From Amoebophrya sp. A120 (lineage: Eukaryota > Protista > Dinoflagellata): DNA of 24,444 nucleotides. The notes under the pieces are model-generated. The model was not told the origin of the DNA, did no database searches, and was given only the letters and a program-made list of their open reading frames with translations. Location of the stretch: assembly GCA_905178155.1 (NCBI GenBank), contig CAJINV010000039.1, positions 1 through 24,444 of the forward strand, in the 5' to 3' direction. Position 1 is the first letter of the stretch, and every line of letters begins with the position of its first letter. A program made the translations under genes and the position numbers. Below, one piece after another: positions 1,193 to 24,444 of the stretch.

Positions 1193-1599
1193 TTATCACA
1201 TTGAAAGGATTCCTCTAATTTCTTCTTAACTACCGACGAAAAGACCACCACCACTTTCATCTCCGGTGTAGAGTGCTCTAGGAATAAATTATTTGTTGCC
1301 TTGACGGACTTGTTGCTTCCGTCCGCACGTCAGGAAAGTAACGCCCTGAACCTTCGTAGTTTGTATTGATTCAAAGCCAAGTACTGGTATGCATGCAGTC
1401 CGAACACTATTTAATCGAATGCTGGTTTGTGATTGCAGCATGCACTCCTTTTTTTGCAGATCAATCTATGGACCTATTCTTGCCATTGCTTAGCTTCCCC
1501 GCATTTCCAGGTGTTGAAGCATTGGGAGATTGATACGCATGTTCCCCTTAGTTAGCATGACATGAATTGGGCGAGCAACAGCTTTTAAGGTGATAATAG
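1193..1599 (+). mobile_element. IR-bounded intron (introner-like)
   Basis: ttatcacattgaaag (1193-1207) matches the reverse complement of 1582-1596 at 13/15. Removing 1193..1599 (DR ag) gives CLERDIEFIIV. A GT-AG alternative 1192..1601 is also in frame. Confidence 0.65.
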
Positions 1600-8694: not shown

Positions 8695-9074
8695 CGCATG
8701 TGAGTGGCGTCTTGATGTTTCCCACTAAGCTAAGCGACTAGTACTGGCAAATAATACACAGCAAAAAGACGAAGGGAAGATGCAAAGGTGCTCCGACGGA
8801 CTGAGCTTCAATGATCTTATGTTGCATCGTGTAGGTACAGCCAGTAGCGGTCCGGAACCCACAGTAATGCATGATACTGCAAAAGGAAACCCCGAGAAAG
8901 GAGTTGCGTCGGTGAGGCCTGAGCCGCTACCAGGAGATGCTGTTGATGTAGATTGCTTAACAAAAAACTCTGGTGCAGCGGCATGCCTGTTCCTTTGTTG
9001 TTGTGCTGGCTAAGTATGTATATTCGTAACAAAACTTTTAGGCTGCTGGAGAAACATCACACTTGAACTTCGAT
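8695..9074 (+). mobile_element. IR-bounded intron (introner-like)
   Basis: Perfect IR tgatgtttc (8713-8721) / gaaacatca (9051-9059), plus terminal atcg/cgat. DR at gives in-frame PRNMLLLAL. A GTGAGT donor at 8700 is an alternative. Confidence 0.55.
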
Positions 9075-10216
9075 GCTGCTTCTTGCACTACATTCCCTGG
9101 TATTGCTTCCGGAAGCGGCTTCAGTAACGGAAGGCGAGTCTGTCTCGGTGTCGGAGGATCAGAAGAGCTCGCACTCAAATGAGAAGCCTGCCGTTCGTGG
9201 ACAAGTTTGGTGGATGTGGAAGCTCCTAACACAGGTTCTCACAACGCTCATGGGAGGGCTTCCAGCGCCCTCGGCTGACTACCTCCAGACGAGATTTTTG
9301 GGTGCGCCCAGTACGATGCCGGAGCCCACACAGCAGCTGGGTCTAGAGTACATGTTTTCCGAGCTCAGCACAACGATTGTGCACACACACAAGCTCGACA
9401 GTACGAAGATGGAGGGCAGCGGCTTTCCTGAAGCTAATTCTGCGTGGTCCCACCTGCAGACCCACGTTAGGGATGAAATTTGCGTTGTGGCACGCGACAG
9501 GGCTGCTTGTGCCGTATCAAAACTGGAGGGGGTGCTTGCAGCAACGCTGGTTTGGGCAAACACTCCAAAAAATCTGCAGGTGCTGAAGGAAGCTTCTGTC
9601 GCAAAAGAGAAGGGTGAGGAAGCTACCAATACTGACTCTTCAAAAAGAGATCCACTCTCACAGCCTCAAAGCACTAGCCCCGCTCCGAATATGCGACCTT
9701 CACCTGCCGCTGCGCCCCATGGCCATTCGTCGAGCGGCACGCAAAATTCTGCAACTGCAATGGGTGCAAGTGCTGGCTCTCTACCTGGCGCACAAACAGA
9801 ATATGTCGGCTTTCACGACGTGGCAGAACTATTCCGGCTGCTCCAAGTGTCACGCCATGCTGGCGCTTTTGAACAGGCTTTCACTTTGTTATCCGATGGC
9901 ATGCCGCAGGACGGCGTTCAGGCACTTACTGCGGAGCTTCAGGTGATATGGCTTGCGGACCAGCTGCGGCACGCGAATCCTCGGCCGTCCGATATCGCTG
10001 GCATTGACAAGCATATTCGAAACCGCACGAAAACCATTCAGCAGTCTACTTCTTCCGCCGACGACTATACCTACGGCAATTTATCCAGCATAGAACTTGT
10101 CGTTTCCCTAGCAGTCTCCCCGTTCGCGGTAGAAGAAGTAGCGCAGTTTTTTGAGATCCTCGCTGCGCATACAGAAATTCTTACACCCGCTAAGGTTCTG
10201 GCAAAAATTAGAAGAT
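9075..10216 (+). CDS. Exon of giant gene (helical region)
   Basis: Lies in ORF 9073..10320. Confidence 0.7.
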
Positions 10217-10597
10217 GCGAAGTATCTCAAAGCCAATCACGATTATTCGCACCCGCACGCTCTCACTGCAGATTTACGTGCCTGCTTGTAATGCAGTTTG
10301 CATTGAAATGCGCAATGTAGTCCTGAATGCCCAAGAAAAAGAATTTGTATGTTCACTATGTATGCATTGATGTCTCTCGCGCGATGAGAGACCCTCCCCC
10401 TCCGTTGTTGTGACTATGAATAGCGTGCTTCCAAAATATAGCTGTACGGACACGCAAGATAAAACGCAATCTCTTCGCACCGGGACGGAGTCGGAACGGA
10501 TGCCCAGCACTGATCTTCCTTGTGTGCATGCTGAGCTCGCCTTTAGGTACTGCGGTGTGCCGGGTGCGAAGCTATGTTTTTCCATTTCGATACGCAT
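10217..10597 (+). mobile_element. IR-bounded non-canonical intron (introner-like)
   Basis: IR ttcgcacccg (10246-10255) / cgggtgcgaa (10561-10570), plus terminal gatgcg/cgcatc. DR at gives in-frame KIRRSAVSRG. Confidence 0.65.
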
Positions 10598-11546
10598 CCG
10601 CTGTGTCAAGAGGGGCGCCAATCTCGCTGAGAAACTGCAGCCAAAAGCTGATCAAGCTGGTCCTTGAACCGGCCCTAGAAGGATGGAATCTGCGCAAAGA
10701 TGAAAAAGAGCGCAAGGCACTCGACAGTCTCACATACGAACTTACTGGCGCCTGGCGTTCGCAGGAGGTCATGGCCGTGATCAAGCGCTTGCGGGACTCA
10801 GTGGCGGCGTTTCCAGAGGTTCGAGGGGTGCTAGAACTCTTGAATGATTACCAAATGGCAGAGGATTGGCGGCCTCTCGGAACTGGCATGCTAGGCCAGG
10901 AGCGCGATGACAGCAAAAATGCCACCCTGGTTAGTGTTCGCAGCGTGCAAGCGACCATCACAGAGTTCTTGAAAGTGACCGAACCTGCGAAGTGGAGCAC
11001 AGTCCTCCATTCGAAATTTGTGGCCATTCTTTTCCCCGGAAGCACAGAACTTTCTCCCGGAGCTGTCGCTGGGCACATCGAAAACGAGGCACGGACGCGA
11101 GCGGGCAGCACCAACTCGGAATTTTTGAAATCTGCAGGAGTGAACCTGCCGGCTAAGCACGACGAGATTGCGAGATTCCCCGTTGCCGATTCCCTTAACT
11201 GGAAAACTTGGGCAGACACCGTGCGCAGCAAGTTTGCTGCTGGAGAGGAAGTGGACATGGTCGAGGTTCTCGCTGTGCTAAAGTCTGGCTGGCACAAGAC
11301 TTTCCACGAAGAACTACGCGCTACACAAATGTTTGCTGTGATCACCCACCTTGACGCGTACAAATCCGGAACAAAAGGCAGACTCGGACAGGTTCCAACG
11401 GGTGAAGGCAAGACAGCCATCGTCGGCGTCCTCGCTGCTGCTTTGTCTCTGCACGGAAAAAAAGTCGACGTTATCACATCCTCGTCGGAACTCGCCAAGC
11501 CCCAAGCAGGGAAGCTAAGCCAATTTTTTCGCCGATTCGGCGTACG
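10598..11546 (+). CDS. Exon with SecA-like DEAD domain start and Walker A
   Basis: LRATQ ... GRLGQVPTGEGKT ... GKKVDVITSSSELA matches SecA xPxxVQ ... AEMxTGEGKT ... GxxVHVVTVNDYLA. Confidence 0.88.
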
Positions 11547-12007
11547 ATGAGCAAAAACAAGGATTGGTTTTGTCATGCGTTTCTACATCATACTTATTAT
11601 AGTATTAATACCCACGAGATAATTGCAACATAGCACAATAGCCTTGATGAACATATGAGAGCGAAATTTGATCGGCACAATTCGGTAGAAATAATCTCGG
11701 CGTTTCTATCCGAAGAAAGAAAAACGTCAGTCAAAGTCAAAAAGAGAAGCAAGATGCGACACACAATTGCCATGAAAGATGACGCAATACGTGCCGTTGC
11801 CGCCAGCAACCATGACTTTGCAGCGCAATACATGCTGCTGTTACGCTCATGGAAATCATTCTGCGTCAAAGGAAGATGAAGACGCAGGCAATGTTGAACA
11901 ACAACTGTAATTCTACATCATGAGTCTCATAGATACTAGTCGGACTCAGACTTTTCTCTCTTTTCTTTTCATACTCAACCTGCCTTGTTTTTTTTCGCGC
12001 AATGCCG
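11547..12007 (+). mobile_element. IR-bounded intron (introner-like)
   Basis: IR aaaaacaagg (11553-11562) / ccttgttttt (11983-11992). DR cg gives FGVRIGSDY. The exact junction is uncertain. Confidence 0.55.
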
Positions 12008-12679
12008 TATTGGGTCAGATTACATTCGGACTCCGAACAAGAAGGTGCGCTCGACTGGGACGAACACTAGATTTGCAGGCAGCGACGTGGTGTATGGTTC
12101 TCCCAGTCTTTTCCAGTGGGCTGACCTGCGACACCGATTCTCTCGAGAACAAGTTGAGGCACGGGATCGCGACACGCGGCCATACGACATTGCAATTATT
12201 GATGAGAGCGACTCTCTCATGGTTGACGGGACGGCGTCACAAGCATTGCTGTCAAGCCCGTTGATGGGCGCTCACCATCTACACAACTTCATGGCTTCCG
12301 TGTGGTTAATTGTGAAAGCGCAAAAGCAACATCTCAAGCAGTTCGAGGTGGACGGAGAGCTTTTAACTTTCGAAGTGCCACCACAGCTCCACACGATAGA
12401 GACTTGGGAAACATACAAGGACGTGCTAAAGGCGCACAACGTCTCCGTTCACGAGTCCCAAGCGATCGAAAACCGACGGGATCCGGAAACGGGGGAGCGT
12501 TTATACAAGTGTTGGACGGACTTTCTCACACAGAAGGTGGAGGAGGTGCTACGCAAGAGCGTCCGCGACTTCGAGTGGCACGCTAAGAGCCACCTGCCGG
12601 GAAAGAAGCTTACAGATGAGCAGATTTCGCAGGTCAGGCAAGGTGACGATCCGAACAACAACGACGTGGCTCCATATCA
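12008..12679 (+). CDS. Exon with SecA-like Walker B
   Basis: DVVYGSPSLFQWADLR (SecA DITYGTNNEFGFDYLR) and AIIDESDSLMVD (SecA AIVDEVDSILID). Confidence 0.88.
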
Positions 12680-13155
12680 GCGGCTCCATCACTTGAATCA
12701 TTATCATGATGGAAGTATCTTCCCTGCCAAGAGTCGGGCTGCAGCAACGTGAAGAACCTGCATTAACAAAAGCGTTGAGGTGCATGCATTTTTCAACTCG
12801 CGACACAGCCTTTCGCACCCCTTGCCTCTCTAGCGGAACTAGAGCGCCATATTTCCCTCTGTGAACATTTGTATAAATGTTAAAGTCTACTTTGACTATA
12901 AATCTGCCGGGCATGAGTCGCTCTAGGTGAACATGCATTTTTCTCGTCGGTGGCCACTACTTTGCTCAAGAGAATATAGAAGAAGCACGGTACGTCTTCG
13001 GCAGCGCTCCTAGATTTGATCTACTTACGCTTTTTTGAAAGATCACCCTTTTGCTCATGCAAGTGGAAGTGGCATGATGAAGTTATAAGCACAACTAGAC
13101 CGCTTTCGTTACGTACACCCTTGGAGGGAATAAGTTTTTGCCGCGATTGTGATCA
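12680..13155 (+). other. Intron, probably non-canonical with DR atca
   Basis: atca at 12676-12679 and 13152-13155 gives in-frame VAPYHRKFIVE. The IR is only gcggc/gccgc, and other in-frame junctions exist. Confidence 0.5.
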
Positions 13156-13363
13156 TCGAAAATTCATCGTGGAGCGAGGCATTTATGACTGGTCCAGAAA
13201 TTGCGTACACGCGCAGTTTATCTATGAACCTGGTGTGCAGTACCAACTTCGGGGGAAAGGCGACGGCACGAACATGGAGCTCAGCACGGTGGACGCCGAC
13301 AATACGGGCACTATCTCCGACTACCAGCAATACAGTGGTGGGCTGCACCAGATTTTGCAAATC
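13156..13363 (+). CDS. Exon matching the end of the SecA preprotein-crosslinking region
   Basis: VDADNTGTISDYQQYSGGLHQILQI resembles SecA VDEFTGRxMxGRRWSDGLHQAxEA. Confidence 0.88.
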
Positions 13364-13697
13364 TATGGCCCGGACATATCGTTTTTTTTCATCTCGTTCG
13401 ACATTTTTGAATAGCTATTTTGCATGCAGCTTCTGAGCTGAAAAAATGCATGAATGTGCTGGACAATTCACAATCTGATGACTACACATGTAGCTACACC
13501 TGTGAACTAGTCAGCCTGAAGCTATCTAGTCTTGTGGAATCGTGGGAAGCCAGAAGACTAGATAGCTTGAGATTAACTAGCTAGCTCATGACGTTGATTT
13601 ATAATATATTCGCACAAGCCAGCTCATGGCGATTATCCACGGCCGCAAATTTTTTCGAACGAGTTCGAAAAAAACCATCTGTCCGGGCCATAAAATC
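13364..13697 (+). mobile_element. Non-canonical fold-back intron / MITE-like introner with 5-nt DR
   Basis: Terminal IR tatggcccggaca / tgtccgggccata (13 nt perfect, ~37 nt imperfect). DR aaatc at 13359-13363 and 13693-13697. Removal restores GLHQILQI|KHGL. No register gives GT-AG. Confidence 0.92.
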
Positions 13698-16412
13698 AAA
13701 CATGGCCTCCGTATGGAGCAGCCTCAAAGTTTTAGCACCAACTTTCTGTCGAACGTCAAGTTCTTCAAGGGCTATGATCATGTGTTTGGACTGACAGGGA
13801 CGCTCGGTGATCAGGCTACGCTGAAGCTCATGCACGAAGTGTACGGATTAGACTTTTTTTTCGCGCCCGGCTTTAAGCAAAAGCAGTTTTACACTCTCCG
13901 GGGTGTTGCTCTGCACGGTAAGGACGCCGGAAAGACCTGGCTTGAGACCGTGGTTCGGCGCGGCCGCGCTGAAGCATTTTTGGGACGTGCGGTTCTGGTG
14001 GTGTGCGAATCCATCAAGAAAGCGGATGCCATACACCAGGCCTTCGAAAAAGCGGCAAAAGATGCAGCCGACCATGAGTCGGAGGGTGGGCCTGAATTGC
14101 CCGACGGCTCCAGACATAACGTATCCCTGTTCAGGTACACCGCAGAAGAGGAACGCGATGCTGCCGTAGAAAGGATCGTCCAGGCGGGTGACGTCATAAT
14201 TGCCACAAATATTTCCGGACGGGGCACTGACATCAAGCTTTCGGACGAGGTGGAAAAGAATGGGGGTATGCACGTCAGCGTTACGTTTATTCCAAGAAAC
14301 AAAAGAGTTCAGGAACAAAATTTCGGTAGAACTGCGCGGACAGGGCTTCGGGGCACAGCCCAGTTGATTGCGGAAGCAGAGAGAGATGTCCCTCCATCTT
14401 TGGGAACGGACGACGGTCGGGACACCCTGCTGCAGTGGCTTTTGGCACGACGCGACGCGCACGAGCGTAACAGCATTCGAAACGCACCAGAAGACATCCG
14501 GAAGACACTGAATAAGGACAAGGTGTTTGACTCCGCTCTGGCAATGCTTGCAGAGCTTTCGCTCGTCAGGCCGAAACCCAAACCAAACGCCCCCAAACCC
14601 GTTTTGGGAGACGAGTCCTGGAAGTCGATAAATCGCCTTGCCTTCGAGGAGCGGTTTGCTCTATGGCTGCTCGCAAGGGGCGCCGCGCTCGAAGACGCAG
14701 ATGACCCCGAGGTTTTCTTTGAGGAAGATTTTGCGAAACCCTTGCGGCAAGAGAAGGTCGGCAAAACTAGGGCCTCGTCGCCTTGTTTGCGACGACCACT
14801 ATACCCGCTCGTCACGAACCCGTACCACCTTGTCAAACAGGCAAACGAGGAGATAAAGTCGGGGCTCTATGATTGCGCCTTGCTTTTGCTCTCAAAGGCG
14901 TCCGAGCTGGACGCTGAATTCAGCGAAAACTGCAGCGGTGGTATGTGTGTTGAGGCCCGATACTCTCGCGGGTTCGCCCACGTCGCAAAACATAACAAGG
15001 AGAAGCCTGAAACCGAGTCCTCGTGCGAGACCCAGTACCCAAAAGTTCTTGCTGTTCTCAAAGAAAAAATTCTTCCACCATTAGACGCTGTAGATATGTG
15101 TTGCCATGGTGCTGGCAATGAGCAGGGTGTCTGTATCAAGGACCTTTTGCATCGTCAGGTCGACCAGCATCGTGCGATCTATCACGGAATGGTGCAACAA
15201 GTACAGTCTGTCATAGGAGATCCGGAGGCCGATTTTGATAAACGAAGGGAGCGGATTTCTGAGCAAATAGACAAAGCTGAAGACACGCTTCGAAAAAGCC
15301 GGAAGGAACGCGCAGAGTACGACAAGATGAGTGACGACGACCGCGTGAAATTTGTAAAAGACAGAGGGATAGAGAATTCCAAGCCTACCGACGAGGACCT
15401 CCGTAATCATCCGCACTTAAAAACCAAGACTGGTGCTTTGCTCGCCTTCGAAGTGCACGTAGTCATCAAAGACGACGAAATTGCAAACGTTGAAGAACAA
15501 CGCCGAGAGTTGCGCAGATCCCGATCCTCGCTAAGGAAAGAAAAACGACAATGCCGCAAAGAGGAATCCGCAGGAACCGCGCAATCGAAAAGAGTCTTGG
15601 GGCTGCTCCGTTGGGCTCGGGAGAACAACCAGGAACTCGGGTTCAAGCGAGTTCTCGACATTACACAAAAAGATGGCTTCAGGTATTTTGTCGGGCCAGA
15701 CCAGGACCACTCTGAGTTTGAAGCAGTTTCGAACATGCATAAAAAGTGGGGGTTAATTGGAGCGCCCGAGTTCGAGGTGTGTCCTCCGTTTGACCGGGGC
15801 GCCTTCGCAGTGTTGATTATTATAGGGGTGACGCAGATGATTGGAGGTGCGGCTCTTGCTGTTTTTACCCTGGGCGCCGCAGCCAACTTCGGTGTGGGCC
15901 TTGTGGCAGAGGGCGTGAGCGATATAATCACAGCGGTCAAGGATATCTTGATCAATCGGTCTTTCGACTGGGGTCGCTGGGGCGCGGAAAAAGCGGTAAG
16001 TCTGGTGTTGAGCCTCGTTACCGCCGGAGTGGGCGTGCTCAAAGAAGCGGCCCGAGTTGCGAACGCTGTGGTCAAGGGCACTGTGGAGTTGAGCAAGCGG
16101 ACCTTAACGGAGGGCGTAAAAGTCGTGGCCCGTACCGCTTTTAAAGTGATCATCAACGAAGGTGTGCAAGTTCTGGCGAAAGTCGCGGTATCGGACGGAC
16201 TCATGCCGCATCTAAAAACTGCAATCAAGGTGCACTTGAAAGATAAGGTGAAAGCTTTGTTGTCAAGCTCTGCTGAATTCGAAGCGCTGAAAGAGGCGGA
16301 TAGTGCGGCTGGAAACAGACAGAACGTGTCGAACGTTACAAAGGCTATTGAAAGTTTGTTACGCCCGGGACAGAATGTAAGTCAGGTCTTTCAGACTCTG
16401 GCAGGGGAAATG
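13698..16412 (+). CDS. Exon with SecA-like helicase C lobe, TPR-like and coiled region, and hydrophobic Gly/Ala-rich segment
   Basis: Motifs GLTGTLG, GRAVLVVCESI, IIATNISGRGTDIKL, GGMHV and RVQEQNFGRTARTGLRG (SecA GMTGTA, ATNMAGRGTDI, GGLxV, QLRGRxGRQGDPG). Hydrophobic stretch at ~15801-16034. Confidence 0.92.
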
Positions 16413-16920
16413 GTACCAAAACATGGACGCCCGCACCGCTCTATCATATTCATATACATGTGATTGTATCTTGGCAGGCGTTTCAGCTGCGACTTCCTAA
16501 TTAGTTTTATTGTCGCACTTTTTCAATGTCGGCGTAATCTCATTGCCATTTGTGCATAATGCGCGCTGCAGCATGTTCCTTCATACGATGGCTGCAGATG
16601 ACCGCTGCATGAGGAATACGCATGATCATCAAGATATGTGTTTCCCAGTGCTCACTACTAAGTGAGTCTGCGAACCAACTCAGCCACCACCTCTCTAGTG
16701 CATATTGGAATTTTCCAACACCAGCGAAAGGAATTATCTCCTTGCACCTGACTATCAGCACACAACAGTACGCGGAAAGATGATTCGCTAAGAATCATAC
16801 GTCGTACAGTTGCAGTGTGGGAGGGAGAGTTGCAGTCTCCTTTAGTCAAAACACCACAAGAATATCATGATAGAGCGGGGGGGGGGCGTTTGAGTGTAAT
16901 ACGATTTTGGATGCGACCAG
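16413..16920 (+). mobile_element. GT-AG intron with subterminal IR
   Basis: Perfect 12-nt IR ccgctctatcat (16436-16447) / atgatagagcgg (16867-16878), flanked by acgccc/gggcgt and ccaaaa/ttttgg. ATG|GT ... CAG|AGA, phase 0. Confidence 0.7.
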
Positions 16921-17147
16921 AGAGTCGCAGGAGCGCTCACGAAGCTCGGCTCGGGCTTAGCAAGTGCCACGAGACCGAGAGCCGGCGAGGCAATACAGGC
17001 AATAAACCTTGCGTTGACAGTAACAGAAGCCACGGCGCAGGTGACGCAAATCGCAACGAATCTAGAACCGCAACTGCTCAGTGTGATTCGGACGCTGCAT
17101 GACGAGCACAAAAAGGTTCTCGAATACGTAGAGGGACACTACCAAAG
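16921..17147 (+). CDS. Exon of giant gene missed by the ORF track (amphipathic helices)
   Basis: Open frame RVAGALTKLGSGLASAT...VLEYVEGHYQ bounded by AG and GT. Confidence 0.65.
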
Positions 17148-17810
17148 GTGCAGTGTTTTTTTCATTTCATCATGAATTGATATGCTAGTCGGGAAATGCC
17201 ATTATGATGCTGATGGATAATCAACTTTCACCAAAATAATTCATTTGACGACGCTTTCGCCTAAGAAAAAGATTTAGCATACAATGCGCAGCATCACTCG
17301 ATGATATCAAATGCGCAAGCAAGTGCTAAGGGGTGTACACATCCCGGCAACGGGGTGGTAGCCCAACATCAAGCGATATCAGCTGAGCGTGTGAGCCCTG
17401 CGCGGGGCGCCTGGCGACTCAGCTGCTGGGGCGTCTGCGCAACACTCCGCGTACGTGTCTCTATTCCAAGGAATTTTTCCTGGATGAGTTGCGAAATGAA
17501 GCAGACACTTATTGCACCCGCCAGACAGGAGTAAAGATACGAAATCGGATTTGTTTCAGTTTGGGGATGGCGCGCTTGGCCTTGTATGTCTCGCAGTTAT
17601 TGTGGTACAATCTCGCAGAGGGCCTCCGCTTCCGCATTTCCGATGATGCAGTGGCGGTGCCTGTCTGTGTTTCTCCTGACCTACTTCTTCATTGTGAGAT
17701 AAATCGCAGCCGAACCTTCCGACCTTTTTCATTCCGAACCATTTCCATTCAAGGCATTCTTGTGACACCAAAAAAAAAAAGTTTGGAAAAATAGAAAATA
17801 CAATATACAG
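17148..17810 (+). other. GT-AG intron with weak terminal complementarity
   Basis: AAG|GTGCAG ... TACAG|T, phase 2, gives HYQSARTS in frame with ORF 17941. Confidence 0.7.
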
Positions 17811-18600
17811 TGCGAGGACCAGCGTCGAGGCAGCAAATCCGCAAGGTGATGGGGACTCAGACCCGATCATACTAGCAAATAAGATAACCCGCGAAACGCA
17901 AAGAAGGATTCAGGCTGAGATAGGAGCTCCAAACGCAAGGATGTCGGCGCAGTGGCTTAAGAAATTGGAGCCAAACCAGATAAAGACCTATGTGAGTCTT
18001 GCTCATTATCATGAAGAGAAAAAGGCGGGGAGGGCCGGCCACGCCGCTTGTTTGACCACAGCATCAACTGTATTAAGCAACCAAAACCAAAACAGTACCA
18101 CTACTGGCGGAGCCGTTGAAATCCAGTCTGTGCCGCCACCACTTTCTCCTCCTGGTCGTTGGGACGCCAATTTTCACGCCGACGACGGACCGCAAGCGAG
18201 AGCCTCGATAAAACGCATGGGCCGCGGCGACGCCGAAGAGGAGCTTTCGGAGAAAGCAGCTCAGGGGGTAACAAATATCGTCGAGGGAGCAACGCTTGCA
18301 GTGTCGTCGACTGCTGCAAGCGCGTGGTGCGCGAAGCGCTTTAAAGATTTTGATGCAAAAACGATGCAGTCTCTCGATCAGGTGCATTCCGTCAACCGCA
18401 TCACTGCTAATTCCGCTTCCAGCGACAACGCCGCGCAACAGCATGCGCAAGCACACGCGGCCGAGACCCAGGCAGCTGCATTGGCCGGCTTATCCAAACA
18501 AGAGCGACGCGAGGCTAAGCGCGCAATGAAAAAAGCGGATATGCAAGTGGCTGGAGACGTTGCCGCCGGGCTTACGAATGATGGCGAAGCGGGTCTTCAT
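17811..18600 (+). CDS. Exon of giant gene (linker before protease-like domain)
   Basis: Frame of ORF 17941..18630 is open back past 17811. Confidence 0.7.
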
Positions 18601-18888
18601 ATCATATGTAAAAACGTCCCCACCCCATAGTCAAGATGGCAAATCTGCTACACAAATCTCCAAGTTTTGGAAGTTGTGCATGACAAGTGTGCCCCTGCAG
18701 TGTAGTGCTGTTTAGCAAGGGAAACTGCATAAGTAAGCCGTTTTGTCATCCTGTTTACAGCGTCACAAATTTTTCCAAAACACGGTCGGAAATAGCTCTC
18801 TTGGTGGAGCTGCGCATTATAAATGTTCGCGTCATTGCACATTTGCGTGACAACTGGGGTGGGGACATTTTTCCTCAGGATACTTCAT
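18601..18888 (+). mobile_element. Non-canonical intron with IR and 6-nt DR (introner-like)
   Basis: IR gtccccacccca (18616-18627) / tggggtggggac (18855-18866), extending to aaaaa/ttttt and tatc/gata. DR cttcat at 18595-18600 and 18883-18888. The join gives EAGLH|HLGEAAHVVGRPIVV. No GT-AG register. Confidence 0.88.
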
Positions 18889-20013
18889 CACCTTGGCGAG
18901 GCTGCGCACGTCGTCGGGCGACCAATCGTCGTGCGCGACAAGAACGGAGACTACGTCACCACACTGGGAAAGGGGCTTCCCGGGGAGCCGGTAGACCTAT
19001 CGCACAGCGTGAATGCCGATGGATCGGGACACTGGTCGCTAACGCGCGAGGTCCGGAACCCAAACTATTCACCCCCTGGTCAGGCGGGAGGCGTAAATAA
19101 TTGCGCTTTCAATGCTATCGCTGCTGCCGTCTACGGGGATCAAGGTCGTGGTGGAGAACTTCGAGGCAAGACTGTGGCTGCTATTGCGAAATCGCCGGGC
19201 CGCATCGCAGCTGTTGCCTCAGATATACGCCGCTACCAGCACTACATGGGAGGAAACTGGAAGAAAGAAAACGGCCACTACATGGTGCTATCCAAAAAAT
19301 CTCCCATGTGGACAGACATCGTGAAAAAGGCCCGAGCAAAAAACGCTTTGTTTGAGGATATCGACGATAGCAAAGTCGAATTCATCGAGATTCATTTTTC
19401 AGCGAAGGGAACCACAGGCACGGGGGCCGATGATTTTGGATGTCACCTTACCGGCGTCCCTTTTTGGTCAAAGCAAACGGGCACGCACAAGAGGCACGTC
19501 AAGGAAAAGATGCACTGCCACTACGAAGCCAACACGAAGACGCACACAGAACATGGACGCGCTGCGGATGCCAAGAACTACGGAAATAATATAATTGTCT
19601 ACGCGCCCGCTCACAGAATGAGCCCAAGCCAAGCTGCGATGAATACCGAATGGCCGAAGCACGGCTCTCTTTATAATGATAGCAGTCACCTAGCGCGCTT
19701 TCACCGAGAAATCCTACAACAGGCGAGGCTCAATTTATTGAATGGACTGCAAAATGCCTATGCGAACAGCAAAGGGCGTGGGAAGCCGCCATACCCGATG
19801 GGTCCCGATCCAGATGGAAAGGTGATTGGATTTCCGAAAACCAAAGCAATTGCGAAGCATGCGGCGAACATCTTCGGAGCTAACCCCAACGCGTTTCTCG
19901 GAGACCGGAACGCCAAAGATGCAATTTTTTTTCTAATGCAACACATGGAGGACGGCCGGTTTTTAAACCAGCCTGTCGGATTCTGGAAACAGGTCCAAGG
20001 ACAACGTCGGTAA
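18889..20013 (+). CDS. Last exon: permuted OTU-like protease, GG motif, His-rich C-terminal domain
   Basis: GRPIVV ... GHW (His at 19030) ... NNCAFNAIA (Cys at 19102) ... ELR ... YMGG (GG at 19249-19254). Stop TAA at 20011-20013. Confidence 0.78.
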   Translation, partial: HLGEAAHVVGRPIVVRDKNGDYVTTLGKGLPGEPVDLSHSVNADGSGHWSLTREVRNPNYSPPGQAGGVNNCAFNAIAAAVYGDQGRGGELRGKTVAAIAKSPGRIAAVASDIRRYQHYMGGNWKKENGHYMVLSKKSPMWTDIVKKARAKNALFEDIDDSKVEFIEIHFSAKGTTGTGADDFGCHLTGVPFWSKQTGTHKRHVKEKMHCHYEANTKTHTEHGRAADAKNYGNNIIVYAPAHRMSPSQAAMNTEWPKHGSLYNDSSHLARFHREILQQARLNLLNGLQNAYANSKGRGKPPYPMGPDPDGKVIGFPKTKAIAKHAANIFGANPNAFLGDRNAKDAIFFLMQHMEDGRFLNQPVGFWKQVQGQRR

Positions 20014-21602
20014 GCTGCAACTCAATCTGGGATGGGCTTTCCGGTGCTCGCCCCTCCTTCAGGGGTGTCCATGTGGCGAGAGGTGGTCGTTGATATATAT
20101 GAATATCATTCCTGCGCGAGGTCCCGCTCCACGGCTATCGCTAGCTCTTAGCAATGTCGGAGTATGCAGCAACGAATATTTTGTCTTTTCGTGAGTGCAA
20201 CCGCACCCTCATCAAGTCTTCTTCTCGGAATACTCGCACGATTAGCGATACGAGTCTATGATCGCTATTTTTTTTTCCCCTGATCGGCGTAATGCTTCAT
20301 AAATTCAATTTGTGAATTGTTCTCCGATTGCTTGGGGTTTCGTTACTATGTACAATATTTTTTTGGGCCAAGGCTACTACTCTGGAACATGTGTTTTGCC
20401 TGCACGTTTTGCATTTTTTCGTCTCAAAACGCATTGCAAAAATCGTAGAGGCCACACTAGAAAGCATGTATCGACCACCTGTACAATGTCACTACTCAGA
20501 GTAGAGTTGTTTTAGTTTTTTCCTTGAGAAGATTTATTTTAGATACAAATGACCAACTTCAATACTTGGTTGAAGGAATTGATATACGCTGCTTCTGAAA
20601 GAGAAAGACCCAGTTTCCAATAACAATGAACACGTCGTCAGCATCTAGATAGATCCATAGCCATACGATTGGCAATTCATCGTATGAGGAAGATTTTATC
20701 TATCTTCCTGTCTGCACAAGCCAACGCATTATATAGTGGAGGACCGCCTCATGATCTAGCGTGGAGAGTTTTCAAATCACTATGAATTGAGTTCTACAAT
20801 GGACAATTCAAATTCTTGTGCCTGAGTGCTAGTTTCCATCTTGCCATGCATGCTCAGCTTTTGCTTGCGCATAGCATGTGCTGCGCTTACTTACACGTAT
20901 GCTACTGCTACACAAAGATCAGTTTCAGTTTCAACCTTTGGAAAATGTAGTGAGAACAGTCTATAGTTCCTTTTTTCTGCATCCCAAGTGACATACAGGA
21001 TATCAAATTGTGGACAATTGCAGTGGTTTTCTTGAAATTAGAGTCCCTGTGGTCCATAGAGGCAGAAGTTGAGGTATTTCTGATCATTATGCCAACGCCT
21101 CCCGTGGAATATGATTTTTGATTCGCCGCCTAAGAAGACAAGTACTTGACGTGAACAAGTATGCGCAAAGCAACTCGCGGTGATTTTGAGGCTTCATCCG
21201 GAGATCAACCGTGAAGGATTGTGACGCGCAGGCAAACTGTCACTTATTTCGGTTTCCCTCGTTTTTTCTTCCTTCCTAGTATGTCAGTTATGAATACCTG
21301 ACCTGGTGGAAGTAGCGGCGCAAGCAAAATGAAAGAGAGTGAAAGCGACTTGTTCTGATTTCCGGAGGACAGTGTAGTTCCTGGCATAGACTTCTCATCT
21401 TGAGTAGAATTCTCGCACTTCGCACGAATATCGTATTTGTAATCTCCAATTTTAAGCCATGTTCAGCAGTGCTCGCTTCGTGTTGGTCATGTGATCTAAA
21501 CCCTACCTCCACGAAAGACTGAAGCTTCTATGAGATCCCGAAATGCCTGTTCTCCAAATGCAAATGATGAAGAATTTGAAGAAATCAGGCTCTCTTGGTT
21601 AG

Positions 21603-21667
21603 GATTTTACTCAGACCCGGCGGCCCCGGTAAAATCTTTACCGGGGACCCCCGACCCCGGTAAAATC
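21603..21667. repeat. Cluster of alternating direct and inverted copies of ccccggtaaaatc
   Basis: Direct copies at 21624-21636 and 21655-21667. Inverted partial copies at 21637-21646 and 21603-21610. Confidence 0.85.
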
Positions 21668-21975
21668 GTGAGCATACAGAGCGAGAAGTAGGTCCCAGAA
21701 TGACTAGTGATCTGGATCCTTAGAGTCTGTGATGAGTGGATGACGACCATGATGAAACTTGAATGATGAATCTTCACAGGATGCAACGCAGCCAGAGGCT
21801 TTCGCCCTGTCTGCTGAGAGATTGAAGTGTTTGTGGTGTTTGAAGAACCTTTTCAGGTAGAAGCTTGAGTCACTCAGTGTGGCAGGTGTGTTCAAAGTCC
21901 AACACTGCGCTGCGACTTAGACGCCAATCTGTGCTACTTCACACTAGTGACAGTAGATTCATTGAAGAAAACAAG

Positions 21976-22590
21976 ATGACTGCGGTATCCGCAGAGATCG
22001 CTGCGAAGCTGCCGGATGCGACTGGCTGGATCGAATGGGATCGCTCTGTCCGTGAGGAGGTCGAGCGCCTCGGACTTAGCGTCTACTTCGACAACGTCAT
22101 CGTCAATCTCGGTCAGCCCGGCCTCCCCGGAGGTGCCGGTCAGCAGGCTGAGGCGGTTGCTCAGAAATGGCGCAACCTGAAGGCCGCGATGCTGAAGTCC
22201 TTGACTGGTTCTTGTAAGACCTGGCTGCACGCTCGCCCGAATTACAACGCTCTGAATGCTGGAGAGTTGTATTTGGAGTTGCGTGACATTGGTCATTACG
22301 ACCAGCAGAACAGGACCCAGCAGAAAATCCGTGTTGCTTGTCTCGAATCGATGAAATTCGATGACCGCGACCAACAGCAGGACCCGCCTTCCTTTCTCGC
22401 CAAGGTCAAGCGCGTCATGGACCAGTCCCCTGCGGTGTTTCCGCCCGACCAAGCTCGTCCCGCTGAAGATCGTCAGGCCCAGAACATCTTAGACTACCTG
22501 CCCAAGATGTTTTCCAAGGGTTTCAAGGACACGATCGCGCGCATGGTCGAGGACGGTGCCCAGTTGACGATGCAGCGAGCAGATGGGTGA
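21976..22590 (+). CDS. gag: Gag, N-terminal (capsid-like) part
   Basis: First ATG of ORF 21865..22590 is at 21976. It overlaps the CCHC-containing ORF in the +1 frame and has the same C/G-ending codon style. Confidence 0.7.
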   Translation: MTAVSAEIAAKLPDATGWIEWDRSVREEVERLGLSVYFDNVIVNLGQPGLPGGAGQQAEAVAQKWRNLKAAMLKSLTGSCKTWLHARPNYNALNAGELYLELRDIGHYDQQNRTQQKIRVACLESMKFDDRDQQQDPPSFLAKVKRVMDQSPAVFPPDQARPAEDRQAQNILDYLPKMFSKGFKDTIARMVEDGAQLTMQRADG

Positions 22591-23119
22591 CAAGTTGGCG
22601 ACCCGTCTGCAGGCCATGATCAAGGACGGTGAGTACAAGGTGGAGAGCTCCAGCTTCGGCAAGGCGTTCCCGACGGTTGAGTACGACGAGGACAAGACTG
22701 CCGCTTCCAAGAAGCGCCCCCAGGCTAGTGGTAATGATGAGGACGGTAAAACTTTCATGTCTGCGACTGCTCTCAAGCGGTTCAAGGCTAAACTGAAAAA
22801 GAAAGTTACCGCCGAAGTCCACGCAAGCCAGGGTGGTGATTCTTCTACCCGTAAGAAGGGGAAGGGCAAGAAGGACAAGAAGTTCAAGGATTACAAGAAG
22901 AATATCCAGTGCTACAAGTGCTATGACTGGGGTCACTACGCGCGGGAGTGTCCTACCGCTGCTGCGTCTACGGGTGGGAAACCCAAAGGCAAAGGCAAAG
23001 GAGGGGGCAACGCGTACACCGGCTTCGGTGAACCCACGGTCTACCAGGACTGGGGTGGTGCCTGGGTCTGGCATGATGCTAGCGCTGGATCGGGATCCGG
23101 AAAGCCCGGAACGAGCTGA
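22586..23119 (+). CDS. gag: Gag, C-terminal nucleocapsid part with zinc knuckle
   Basis: CYKCYDWGHYAREC (CX2CX4HX4C) at 22910-22951, with Lys/Gly-rich flanks. Confidence 0.85.
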   Translation, partial: GDKLATRLQAMIKDGEYKVESSSFGKAFPTVEYDEDKTAASKKRPQASGNDEDGKTFMSATALKRFKAKLKKKVTAEVHASQGGDSSTRKKGKGKKDKKFKDYKKNIQCYKCYDWGHYARECPTAAASTGGKPKGKGKGGGNAYTGFGEPTVYQDWGGAWVWHDASAGSGSGKPGTS

Positions 23120-24444
23120 GATGAGGATCAAGATCCGGAACGGGGAAGATGTTGTTTGAACTTTGAGGCGGATGAAGTGCATTACAAGAGTTTCGTAGAT
23201 TCGGTTAACTCTGCTGCTACTATGTTGTCTGTTGTTGATTATTGTGCAGCCAGTTACCTAGGTGTAAAGCAGGTAAACCTAGTTGACAGCTGTGCAAATA
23301 GATACTTATCCAAGCACGCTGATGATTTTAAGAACATCACGGGCCGACGCTGTACCATCAACGGAACAGCTGGCGCACGGGATGGATTTATAGGAGAATT
23401 GCAACCCAACCAATTAAACCTGCGACATGGTGTTTATTTTAAAGATCTACCGAAGGACATTGATAGGATTTTGCCTTGGCTCGGTGAAGGTAACATGTCA
23501 CAAGTAGGATGGGAGCTTACCTTTCACAGCACCGGCGGAACCATTGCTCACACTGGTACCGGCCGCGTGTTGGACATAAAGAATCGTCCCAGAATGTGCC
23601 TTCCCGTCCTTGGTTGCCACTTGTTTGACCTGCAGGAGGCAGATGCTGCGGACGGCTTTGTCTGTACTTCTGTCGCCGAGGTATCCACTAGTAGTTGTTA
23701 CTTGACTAAGTTAGAGCTACATAGACGTCTTGGACATTTCCATGTGGACGGGCTCAACGTCAGTTGTCCCGAATGCGATAGAACTAAAGGACAGAGGAAC
23801 CCACATGCGAAAGTAAGAAATGTTGAGAATTATAAACCTCAACCACTAAAACTATTAGCGTTTGACTTCGGTGTCGGTGTGAAGCCCATGTCTATCATGA
23901 AGCACACCTGTGTCCTTGTTGGTATCTGTGACGCCATCAAGAAGTGTTTTGTCAGGCCTCTTTTGTACAAGAGCGACTGCGTGGAGGAGTTGGAAGACAT
24001 TATCAAAGGCATTCGCGCAGACTGGTCATTGTCCTTGGATGGCAAGGTCGTTTGGTTCCTGAGACGGGACAATGAGCCAGTTCTGGGCAGTGAGCACATG
24101 ACCAAGGTCATGCAATCGCTGCAGATCTGTGACGCTCCAATTGTTCCTCACAATCCAGAGCAAAACGGAACCTGCGAACGTTTTATGCGGACGCTGTTCG
24201 GCTCCTGCCGTACACTGTTGGTTCACGTCGATCGCCGTCCGTGGTCCTATGCCATAGTCTACAGCGGTGATTGTTGGGACCGGCTGCCGCATAAATATGC
24301 AAAGATGCCAGAGCATGACGGAGAGACTCCGATAGAGATCCTTGAGAAGAGGACAGGAAGGAACAGTGCGAAGCAAGGCATTGGCCTGCTCAGGCGTTTT
24401 GGTTGTCTTGTTTACTTTCGTGAACAAATCAAGACGGACAGAGA
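23120..24444 (+). CDS. pol: Pol (aspartic protease, HHCC, DDE integrase), partial; absent from the ORF track
   Basis: Stop-free frame to the window end. LVDSCA (Asp at 23285), HRRLGH...CPEC (23720-23776), and D 23864, D 24068, E 24176 with D(35)E spacing. Confidence 0.92.

What the first reader, a model, noticed from the sequence alone, without database searches (positions are those of the whole stretch)
13359..13697. Clearest case: fold-back intron splitting a conserved SecA motif, with no possible GT-AG ends
The conserved LQI|KHG join fixes the junction to within the aaatc DR, and all six registers give non-canonical dinucleotides. The ~37-nt TIR plus TSD-like DR looks like a DNA-transposon-derived MITE acting as an intron.
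Basis: seen in the sequence. Interest (0 to 1): 0.7.

Follow-up and report, generated by a model that had tools for sequence, protein, structure and literature searches.

The report
Transposon-like intron in Amoebophrya gene
A 334-base hairpin element, likely a small transposon, sits inside a working gene of the marine parasite Amoebophrya and is missing to the base from a transcript-like assembly although it has no normal splice signals; this kind of intron is already published for the organism, but neighbouring introns suggest the cut is placed at a fixed distance from the hairpin.

Summary
Observation confirmed. A 329-bp element (13364-13692) with 38-nt inverted ends sits between two AAATC copies. 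None of the six equivalent cuts is GT-AG. One RNA-like contig joins 13358>13693 without mismatch; two DNA-like runs keep the element and show related copies at other sites, one apparently with its own 5-bp duplication (CTCAA). Removing this and six other introns opens a 2,624-codon frame, so the gene is intact. The window matches Amoebophrya sp. A120: NCBI protein P0002 already has this junction, and Farhat 2021 (PMC7789003) describes such TAT-ended 'introner elements' as MITE-like.

Added here: older introns of the same gene, whose duplications have decayed, allow only one shared register, 1 nt before the 5' repeat and 4 nt after the 3' repeat (5 of 5 RNA-seen joints; 8 of 1,500 random controls). 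This predicts ends CT..AT (13363-13696), where the paper text calls the position variable. The likely remover is a U1-less spliceosome guided by the hairpin (untested). No transposase partner was found.

The parts
13359..13363 (+). Left copy of the 5-bp direct repeat AAATC (likely target-site duplication)
13364..13401 (+). 5' terminal inverted repeat, starts TATGG; outer 13 nt perfect
13507..13580 (+). Inner hairpin, 31-nt arms, 84% complementary
   Evidence: only a sub-threshold Rfam hit
13655..13692 (+). 3' terminal inverted repeat, ends CCATA
13693..13697 (+). Right copy of the direct repeat AAATC
13363..13696 (+). The intron, 334 nt. Length is shown; this register (CT..AT) is inferred from the other introns of the gene
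   Evidence: joint 13358>13693 with 5 letters fitting either side; register
13153..13362 (+). Upstream exon, ends in ...GGLHQILQI
   Evidence: X5 contig piece 13152-13358; P0002
13697..16412 (+). Downstream exon, begins KHGL..., holds the SecA P-loop domain
10222..10596 (+). Older non-canonical intron with decayed repeats (GT..CA in the 1+4 register; AG..GC also allowed)
   Evidence: joint 10220>10596 in X3, flagged 'between: not known'
11542..12008 (+). Non-canonical intron implied by annotation only (three registers give P0002)
   Evidence: no RNA cover seen
12701..13152 (+). Older non-canonical intron with decayed repeats (TT..GA in the 1+4 register)
   Evidence: joint 12699>13152 in X3; loose end of the X5 contig
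16413..16905 (+). Non-canonical intron with no junction repeat; unique cut GT..AT, 1 nt before and 4 nt after a decayed inverted repeat
   Evidence: joint in X3 and X4 with 0 shared letters
17148..17810 (+). Canonical GT-AG intron without terminal repeats (internal control)
   Evidence: joint in X3 and X4, flagged 'between: not known'
18599..18886 (+). Second young element of another family: TAT-ended inverted repeat 18600-18882, 5-bp duplication CTTCA
   Evidence: joint in X3 and X4
9067..20013 (+). Host reading frame: 2,624 codons without a stop after seven introns are removed; SecA_DEAD and P-loop_SecA domains; true start not mapped

Best explanation
The stretch is a 334-nt non-canonical intron, missing to the base from an RNA-like contig, that likely arose when a non-autonomous DNA transposon inserted into an exon and is likely removed by a modified spliceosome that measures its cuts from the element's terminal hairpin. 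Shown: inverted ends, 5-bp duplication, presence in DNA runs, absence from the spliced contig, related copies elsewhere, open frame after removal. Inferred, step 1: an integrase-like DDE transposase encoded elsewhere inserted the TA..TA-ended element and duplicated AAATC. Inferred, step 2: in the pre-mRNA the two ends pair and bring the exons together. Inferred, step 3: the cuts fall 1 nt before the 5' arm and 4 nt after the 3' arm, so exactly one copy of the duplication leaves with the element and the old exon is restored; the intron would read C|UAUGG...CCAUA|AAAU, with the repeat's first U always at position +2. Inferred, step 4: the catalyst is the U2/U5/U6 spliceosome of A120, which appears to lack U1, with the first and last bases relaxed. 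My odds: real intron of transposon origin 0.92; fixed 1+4 register 0.7; spliceosomal catalysis 0.55-0.6.
For: Splicing: the X5 contig (450 nt, depth 4.4, 0 other letters, 81 nt on the short side) joins 13358>13693, and its loose end equals window 12670-12699, so it also lacks the upstream intron; DNA-like runs X1 and X7 show no such joint and X1 carries the element. P0002, named Amoebophrya sp. A120, has the join letter for letter. Keeping the intron stops the frame at codon 1018; removing all seven opens 2,624 codons. Mobility: loose ends in X1 at 13364 (ending CTCAA) and in X1 and X7 at 13692 (starting CTCAA), another foreign flank at 13362, and diverged interior copies. Register: (1,4) is the only offset pair allowed by all 5 of 5 RNA-seen non-canonical joints and is unique at 16413-16905; random pseudo-introns allow it in 8 of 1,500. 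All 9 'predominant' A120 splice pairs in Table S4 of PMC7789003 start NT. Introner fam2 in PMC12130899 has 6,681 of 9,716 5' ends NT, only 392 TA, and 6,598 3' ends AN. In the yeast P complex U(+2) pairs with U6 A51, A(-2) with the branch A, and G(+1) with G(-1) (10.1101/212811, passages), so NT..AN is what would remain if only the terminal pair were relaxed. A120 keeps U2, U4, U5 and U6, U1 undetected. Transposase class: A120 fam38 is listed as '5-bp TSD, TA/TA termini' and has integrase-like homology.
Against: Only 1 of 6 RNA or RNA-like runs laid bridges this junction, by one assembled contig; X9 and X10 laid 0 reads, and the RNA label of X5 is the tool's guess. The register of this intron cannot be read from its own junction. 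Only 3 of the 5 joints are informative (the two with intact duplications allow every register), one of these is flagged 'between: not known', and the ranking rule was set after I had seen the data. For the annotated intron 11542-12008 the top-ranked repeat placement did not give (1,4); the second-ranked did. Only 2 of 6 non-canonical introns of this gene have A at -2 in that register. Published dinucleotide tallies depend on how an aligner slides within the duplication (CT..AC is the reverse complement of GT..AG). A 38-bp stem over both ends must be opened for a branch site to dock; the nearest branch-like motifs are at 13573 and 13594. Farhat et al. found no transposase in A120 and argue against general transposase mobilisation. 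The CTCAA flanks lie on separate contigs, so one locus is assumed.
Confidence: 0.62

Rival explanations
1. [quoted passage not shown]
For: The cut is set by distance from a stem and tolerates varied end bases. U1 is undetected. Euglenid introns with TIR stems offset from the ends leave as full-length circles, mechanism unknown (PMC11282704 section 6). 4 of 6 introns here lack A(-2).
Against: 3 of the 4 introns with decayed duplications start GT in the 1+4 register, against 0 of 2 young ones (tiny sample). Genome-wide NT..AN bias in published tallies. Introns whose stems have largely decayed are still removed exactly. Fritillaria's transposon-derived non-canonical introns appear spliceosomal.
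Confidence: 0.27
2. [quoted passage not shown]
For: A stable hairpin flanked by short direct repeats is the known recipe for 'falsitrons' (PMC8240250 passages). All RNA evidence here is cDNA-derived and rests on one contig.
Against: The neighbour 16413-16905 is skipped with no repeat at all, in two runs. No RNA-like contig covers the element interior in X5 or X6. A 2,624-codon frame stays open across seven introns, each of which would stop it if kept. More than 60% of A120 introns are non-canonical.
Confidence: 0.04
3. The element is absent at the DNA level in some cells or strains (excision or an empty allele), and contig X5 is DNA from such an allele.
For: X5 is only guessed to be RNA and is from another sample than X1. 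Precise loss of the element plus one duplication copy is what an empty site looks like.
Against: The same contig lacks a second, older intron. Runs filed under the same study code lack a canonical GT-AG intron too. X1 and X7 show no empty-site joint.
Confidence: 0.03
4. The direct repeat itself defines the cut, so any register within it is used and there is no fixed offset from the hairpin (the 'variable' position of the 2021 paper).
For: Fig. 3 legend of PMC7789003 calls splice sites variable relative to the hairpin, and the text reports DRs of 3-5 nt. About 31% of fam2 5' ends are not NT.
Against: Introns with 0-2 shared letters at the junction are removed exactly, all at offsets that sum to 5 and include (1,4).
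Confidence: 0.2

Closest known systems
Introner elements (IEs) among the non-canonical introns of Amoebophrya sp. A120 (Farhat et al. 2021, PMC7789003)
   Same: Same organism by protein match (P0002, 100% identity). Non-canonical ends, terminal IR starting TAT, 3-5-nt DR at the boundary, hairpin, repeated copies, MITE likeness; 29,850 IEs reported in A120.
   Different: The IR here runs 38 nt (paper: 8-20-nt motifs) and reads ACA where the consensus has three As. The paper's text and legends leave the cut position variable or unknown; I infer a fixed 1+4 register. I could not see its figures.
TIR DNA introner families of A120, especially fam38 (PMC12130899, file sd07.xlsx and Figs 2F, S9)
   Same: fam38 is listed with 5-bp TSD and TA/TA termini; several other families are about 300-350 bp with TIRs and 5-bp TSD (fam160, fam183).
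   Different: fam38 is about 810 bp with ORFs similar to Copia/Gypsy integrase regions; this element is 329 bp with no ORF.
IS3EU/GingerRoot DNA transposons (PMC10045372, PMC12730594)
   Same: Termini TAYGG..CCRTA and TIRs over 30 bp match this element's TATGG..CCATA and 38-nt arms.
   Different: IS3EU duplications are usually 6 bp; this one is 5 bp at two sites. No transposase to compare.
Nonconventional introns of euglenids (review PMC11282704)
   Same: Non-canonical ends brought together by a TIR stem set a few bases inside the intron, TSD-like repeats, probable MITE origin.
   Different: Other lineage; stem at +4..+6/-8..-6 with CAG/CTG versus +2/-5 with TAT/ATA here; circles are shown there and untested here.
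Transposon-derived non-canonical introns of the tunicate Fritillaria borealis (review PMC11282704)
   Same: TIR plus TSD introns without GT-AG, apparently removed by an altered spliceosome.
   Different: Mostly AG-AC and AG-AT ends; no such fixed dinucleotide pair here.

Membership tests
Amoebophrya A120 introner element (Farhat 2021) | Lies in the A120 genome | tested here: met
   P0002, named Amoebophrya sp. A120, is 100% identical over the shared part and is rebuilt letter for letter from the window
Amoebophrya A120 introner element (Farhat 2021) | RNA-supported intron with ends other than GT-AG | tested here: met
   Joint 13358>13693 in X5; six registers non-canonical. One contig, not the paper's three-read criterion
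Amoebophrya A120 introner element (Farhat 2021) | Inverted repeat of 8-20 nt pairing the two ends | tested here: met
   13 nt perfect, 38 nt at 87%
Amoebophrya A120 introner element (Farhat 2021) | Direct repeat of 3-5 nt at the boundaries | tested here: met
   AAATC
Amoebophrya A120 introner element (Farhat 2021) | IR motif TAT + 7 nt + at least three A | tested here: inconclusive
   TAT and spacing fit; positions 11-13 read ACA. The logo (Fig. S25) could not be seen
Amoebophrya A120 introner element (Farhat 2021) | Repeated in the genome | tested here: met
   Foreign flanks at 13362, 13364 and 13692 and diverged interior contigs in X1 and X7; copy number not measured
MITE (non-autonomous TIR DNA transposon) | Short, TIR-bounded, TSD-flanked, no coding capacity | tested here: met
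   329 bp; longest stop-free stretch 57 codons in six frames
MITE (non-autonomous TIR DNA transposon) | TSD differs between insertion sites at constant length | tested here: met
   AAATC here, CTCAA at a second site (the two flanks are on separate contigs, one locus assumed)
MITE (non-autonomous TIR DNA transposon) | Cognate autonomous element with the same TIR | not testable with these tools
   No genome held; metagenome scan for the TIR gave 0
IS3EU/GingerRoot | Termini TAYGG..CCRTA, TIR over 30 bp | tested here: met
   TATGG..CCATA, 38 nt
IS3EU/GingerRoot | 6-bp TSD | tested here: not met
   5 bp at both sites seen versus usually 6 bp; not filed as a member
IS3EU/GingerRoot | DDE transposase of that clade | not testable with these tools
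   Element is non-coding; partner unknown
U2-type spliceosomal intron | GT/GC-AG ends | tested here: not met
U2-type spliceosomal intron | Lariat with a branch adenosine; dependence on U2/U5/U6 | not testable with these tools
   Contigs cannot show lariats; raw-read runs X9 and X10 laid 0 reads
Euglenid-type nonconventional intron | CAG/CTG stem at +4..+6 / -8..-6 | tested here: not met
   Stem begins TAT/ATA
Euglenid-type nonconventional intron | Release as full-length circle | not testable with these tools
   Needs RNase R RNA data

The most novel reading that the evidence does not exclude
Across A120, the transposon's TAT...ATA hairpin is itself the splice signal: cuts are measured 1 nt before and 4 nt after the stem, whatever the end bases. 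Any 5-bp-duplicating insertion, in either orientation, is then removed without a scar. This would replace GT-AG recognition for tens of thousands of introns, and let a U1-less spliceosome (or an unknown enzyme) read a transposon end driven by an IS3EU-like or integrase-like transposase.
Probability: 0.45. Interest if true: 0.62.

Novelty: already known. Interest (0 to 1): 0.32.

Why it matters
The intron and its class are published, so the finding itself adds no new kind of element. How Amoebophrya removes these introns is still open in the papers I read (PMC7789003 section 16; PMC11282704 section 6). A fixed 1+4 register would give exact predicted intron ends, which makes lariat-versus-circle tests and re-annotation straightforward. 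The paralogue's public model (P0001) appears to read into the 3' repeat and lose the conserved exon, which shows what the missing rule costs.

Tried and rejected
Whole-genome copy count: no genome is held for this window. Metagenome scan for the TIR motif: 0 matches; this says nothing about A120 itself. 2026 RNA runs X9 and X10: 0 reads laid, no test; the run search listed no holder on record as RNA. Nearby in-frame GT-AG, GC-AG, GA-AG and AT-AC pairs: 14 listed, 7 scored, all below the observed join (149-171 vs 189). My first frame choice was wrong, so its empty list of alternatives is void; one search replaces it. The 'ungapped 1 of 110' figure reflects a one-residue insertion 7-9 residues after the junction, specific to this gene copy; one search tests the core motif. 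Rfam: only mir-28 at 22.7 bits against a cut-off of 64, rejected. Testing the 1+4 rule on upstream gaps without RNA cover was inconclusive: top pairs were in frame in 4 of 7 gap pairings against a background near one third, and the clearest pair (1194-1595) is out of frame with the ORF at 721. 'TATGGCCC' was absent from the Farhat supplement and from files 1-12 of 14 of the PNAS 2025 supplement. Roy et al. 2023 (PMID 36543167) is not held. Scan notes by sequence and by genome: none.

Full report
Observation. The window shows AAATC at 13359-13363, an element from 13364 to 13692, and AAATC again at 13693-13697. The arms 13364-13401 and 13655-13692 are 87% complementary over 38 nt, the longest inverted repeat in the window. 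The strand folds at -122.3 kcal/mol, z = -8.62, with 0 of 100 shuffles as stable. A perfect 13-nt inverted repeat alone is unremarkable (59 of 200 resampled windows), but none of 200 had one flanked by a 5-nt direct repeat. Removing 334 nt in any of six registers gives the same product; the ends are AA..TA, AA..AA, AT..AA, TC..AA, CT..AT or TA..TC. The element has no stop-free stretch over 57 codons and no Rfam match above threshold.

The join. The spliced frame reads GGLHQILQI|KHGL. Of 421 relatives found with the downstream exon, 120 were listed; 119 matched the joined peptide, 113 covered the motif and 111 of these without a gap. Q66 and K71 are kept in 108 and 104 of 110. Canonical pairs exist nearby, including an in-frame GT-AG pair of the same length (13396-13729), but the seven alternatives scored all fall below the observed join.

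Organism and prior annotation. The four best hits are named Amoebophrya sp. A120. P0002 is rebuilt letter for letter from the window when this intron and two others are removed, so the public gene model already has the junction. P0001, an 86% paralogue, reads ICPGHKIKHGL, the translation of the 3' repeat. DNA contigs with paralogue-like differences also run into the element. The element therefore probably predates the duplication, and the paralogue's model appears mis-spliced.

RNA and DNA evidence. One contig of run X5 (RNA by the tool's guess; 450 nt, depth 4.4, no mismatch) joins 13358 to 13693, with five letters fitting either side. Its loose end equals window 12670-12699, so it lacks the upstream intron too. 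X1 and X7 show no such joint, and X1 contigs cover the element and both borders without mismatch. Of six RNA or RNA-like runs laid, only X5 bridges the site; X9 and X10 laid 0 reads. X3 and X4 show five further joints in the gene, one of them GT-AG. Removing seven introns leaves 2,624 codons without a stop from 9067 to 20013; keeping any one gives an early stop. The gene is not a pseudogene.

Mobility. In X1, one contig meets the 5' repeat with a foreign flank ending CTCAA; in X1 and X7 a contig leaves the 3' repeat into a flank starting CTCAA. Another foreign flank appears at 13362, and interior contigs differ at up to 26 positions. This indicates at least two further sites besides the paralogue, and a 5-bp duplication that changes with the site, assuming the two CTCAA flanks are one locus. 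Copy number could not be counted, since no genome is held.

Where the cut falls. This intron's own junction cannot tell. Older introns of the gene can, because their duplications have decayed while the TAT/TAC-started repeats remain visible. Placing the repeats by the published motif, the offsets between cut and repeat sum to 5 in all 5 RNA-seen non-canonical introns. The only pair allowed by all is 1 nt before the 5' arm and 4 nt after the 3' arm; at 16413-16905 it is the only possibility. The same procedure allows (1,4) in 8 of 1,500 random pseudo-introns and gives a sum of 5 in 81. Against it: only three joints are informative; the ranking was fixed after seeing the data; the annotated intron 11542-12008 fits only with the second-ranked placement; and a test on upstream gaps was inconclusive. 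Published tallies lean the same way: all 9 predominant A120 pairs in Table S4 start NT, and fam2 of the 2025 dataset has 6,681 of 9,716 NT starts, 392 TA starts and 6,598 AN ends. Aligner preferences may inflate those. The predicted intron is 13363-13696, CT..AT.

Mechanism. The transposon origin is inferred from anatomy and copies. A 5-bp duplication with TA..TA ends is listed for A120 fam38, whose ORFs resemble LTR integrase regions, and TATGG..CCATA matches IS3EU termini, though IS3EU usually makes 6 bp. An integrase-like DDE transposase acting in trans is thus my guess; Farhat et al. found none in A120. For removal I favour the spliceosome (0.55-0.6). In the yeast P complex U(+2) pairs with U6 A51, A(-2) with the branch A and G(+1) with G(-1), so an NT..AN pattern fits a relaxed terminal pair. 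A120 keeps U2, U4, U5 and U6, with U1 undetected. Three of the four older introns start GT in the 1+4 register. Against: only 2 of 6 have A(-2), and the stem must open for catalysis. A structure-guided endonuclease and ligase is the main rival (0.27). Template switching across a hairpin with direct repeats is a real artefact, but it does not explain a skip with no repeat or the long open frame.

What is known. PMC7789003 (abstract, passages, sections 10, 11, 12 and 16, supplement passages and Table S4 rows; figures not visible) reports over 60% non-canonical introns, IRs starting TAT, 3-5-nt DRs and the MITE likeness. PMC12130899 (passages; all 58 A120 rows of file sd07; files 13-14 not searched) classes most A120 families as TIR DNA introners. 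PMC11282704 (passages, section 6) reviews the tunicate and euglenid parallels. PMC10045372, PMC12730594, PMC8240250, 10.1101/212811 and 10.1101/2024.09.05.611473 were seen as passages; the last says another Amoebophrya uses GT-AG and has U1. Three searches on Amoebophrya introns listed no paper whose title or read passages state a fixed register. The figures of PMC7789003 and Roy et al. 2023 (not held) may do so. Seven earlier scan notes describe similar hairpin introns in other genomes; they are unchecked and lend no support.

Verdict. The 1+4 register is the only addition; it is moderately supported and directly testable. Interest 0.32.

Noticed in passing
window 9067-20013 (+), possibly from 721 or earlier: The host is a giant multi-exon protein with SecA_DEAD and P-loop_SecA domains; relatives of similar build occur in fungi, ciliates, insects and Orientia. 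The last exon holds an NCAFNAI motif that recalls an OTU-type protease site (recalled; Pfam found nothing; homologue P0019 carries PF02338).
   Followed up: partly
window 18600-18882: Second young element of another family with TAT ends and a CTTCA duplication; loose ends in X4 point to other copies.
   Followed up: partly
P0001 and X1 contigs over 13228-13760: A paralogue appears to carry the same element at the same site; its public model reads through the 3' repeat and lacks the conserved upstream exon.
   Followed up: partly
window 21844-24444 (+): LTR-retrotransposon-like region: gag-like ORFs split by one stop at about 22590, a CCHC zinc knuckle, then a long frame with HHCC and weak integrase match. 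An inverted repeat at 21596-21674 lies just upstream.
   Followed up: partly
window 1194-1595: Another TAT-ended inverted pair with the A-run, likely an intron; no RNA cover, and the 1+4 cut is out of frame with the ORF at 721.
   Followed up: partly
window 13351-13355 and 13693-13697: In the fold with exon flanks, upstream exon GAUUU pairs with the right AAAUC copy and extends the stem, bulging the left copy; may be chance.
   Followed up: no
window 18427 and 19071: X3 and X4 both read C for A at 18427 and T for A at 19071: strain difference, assembly error or editing; not resolved.
   Followed up: no
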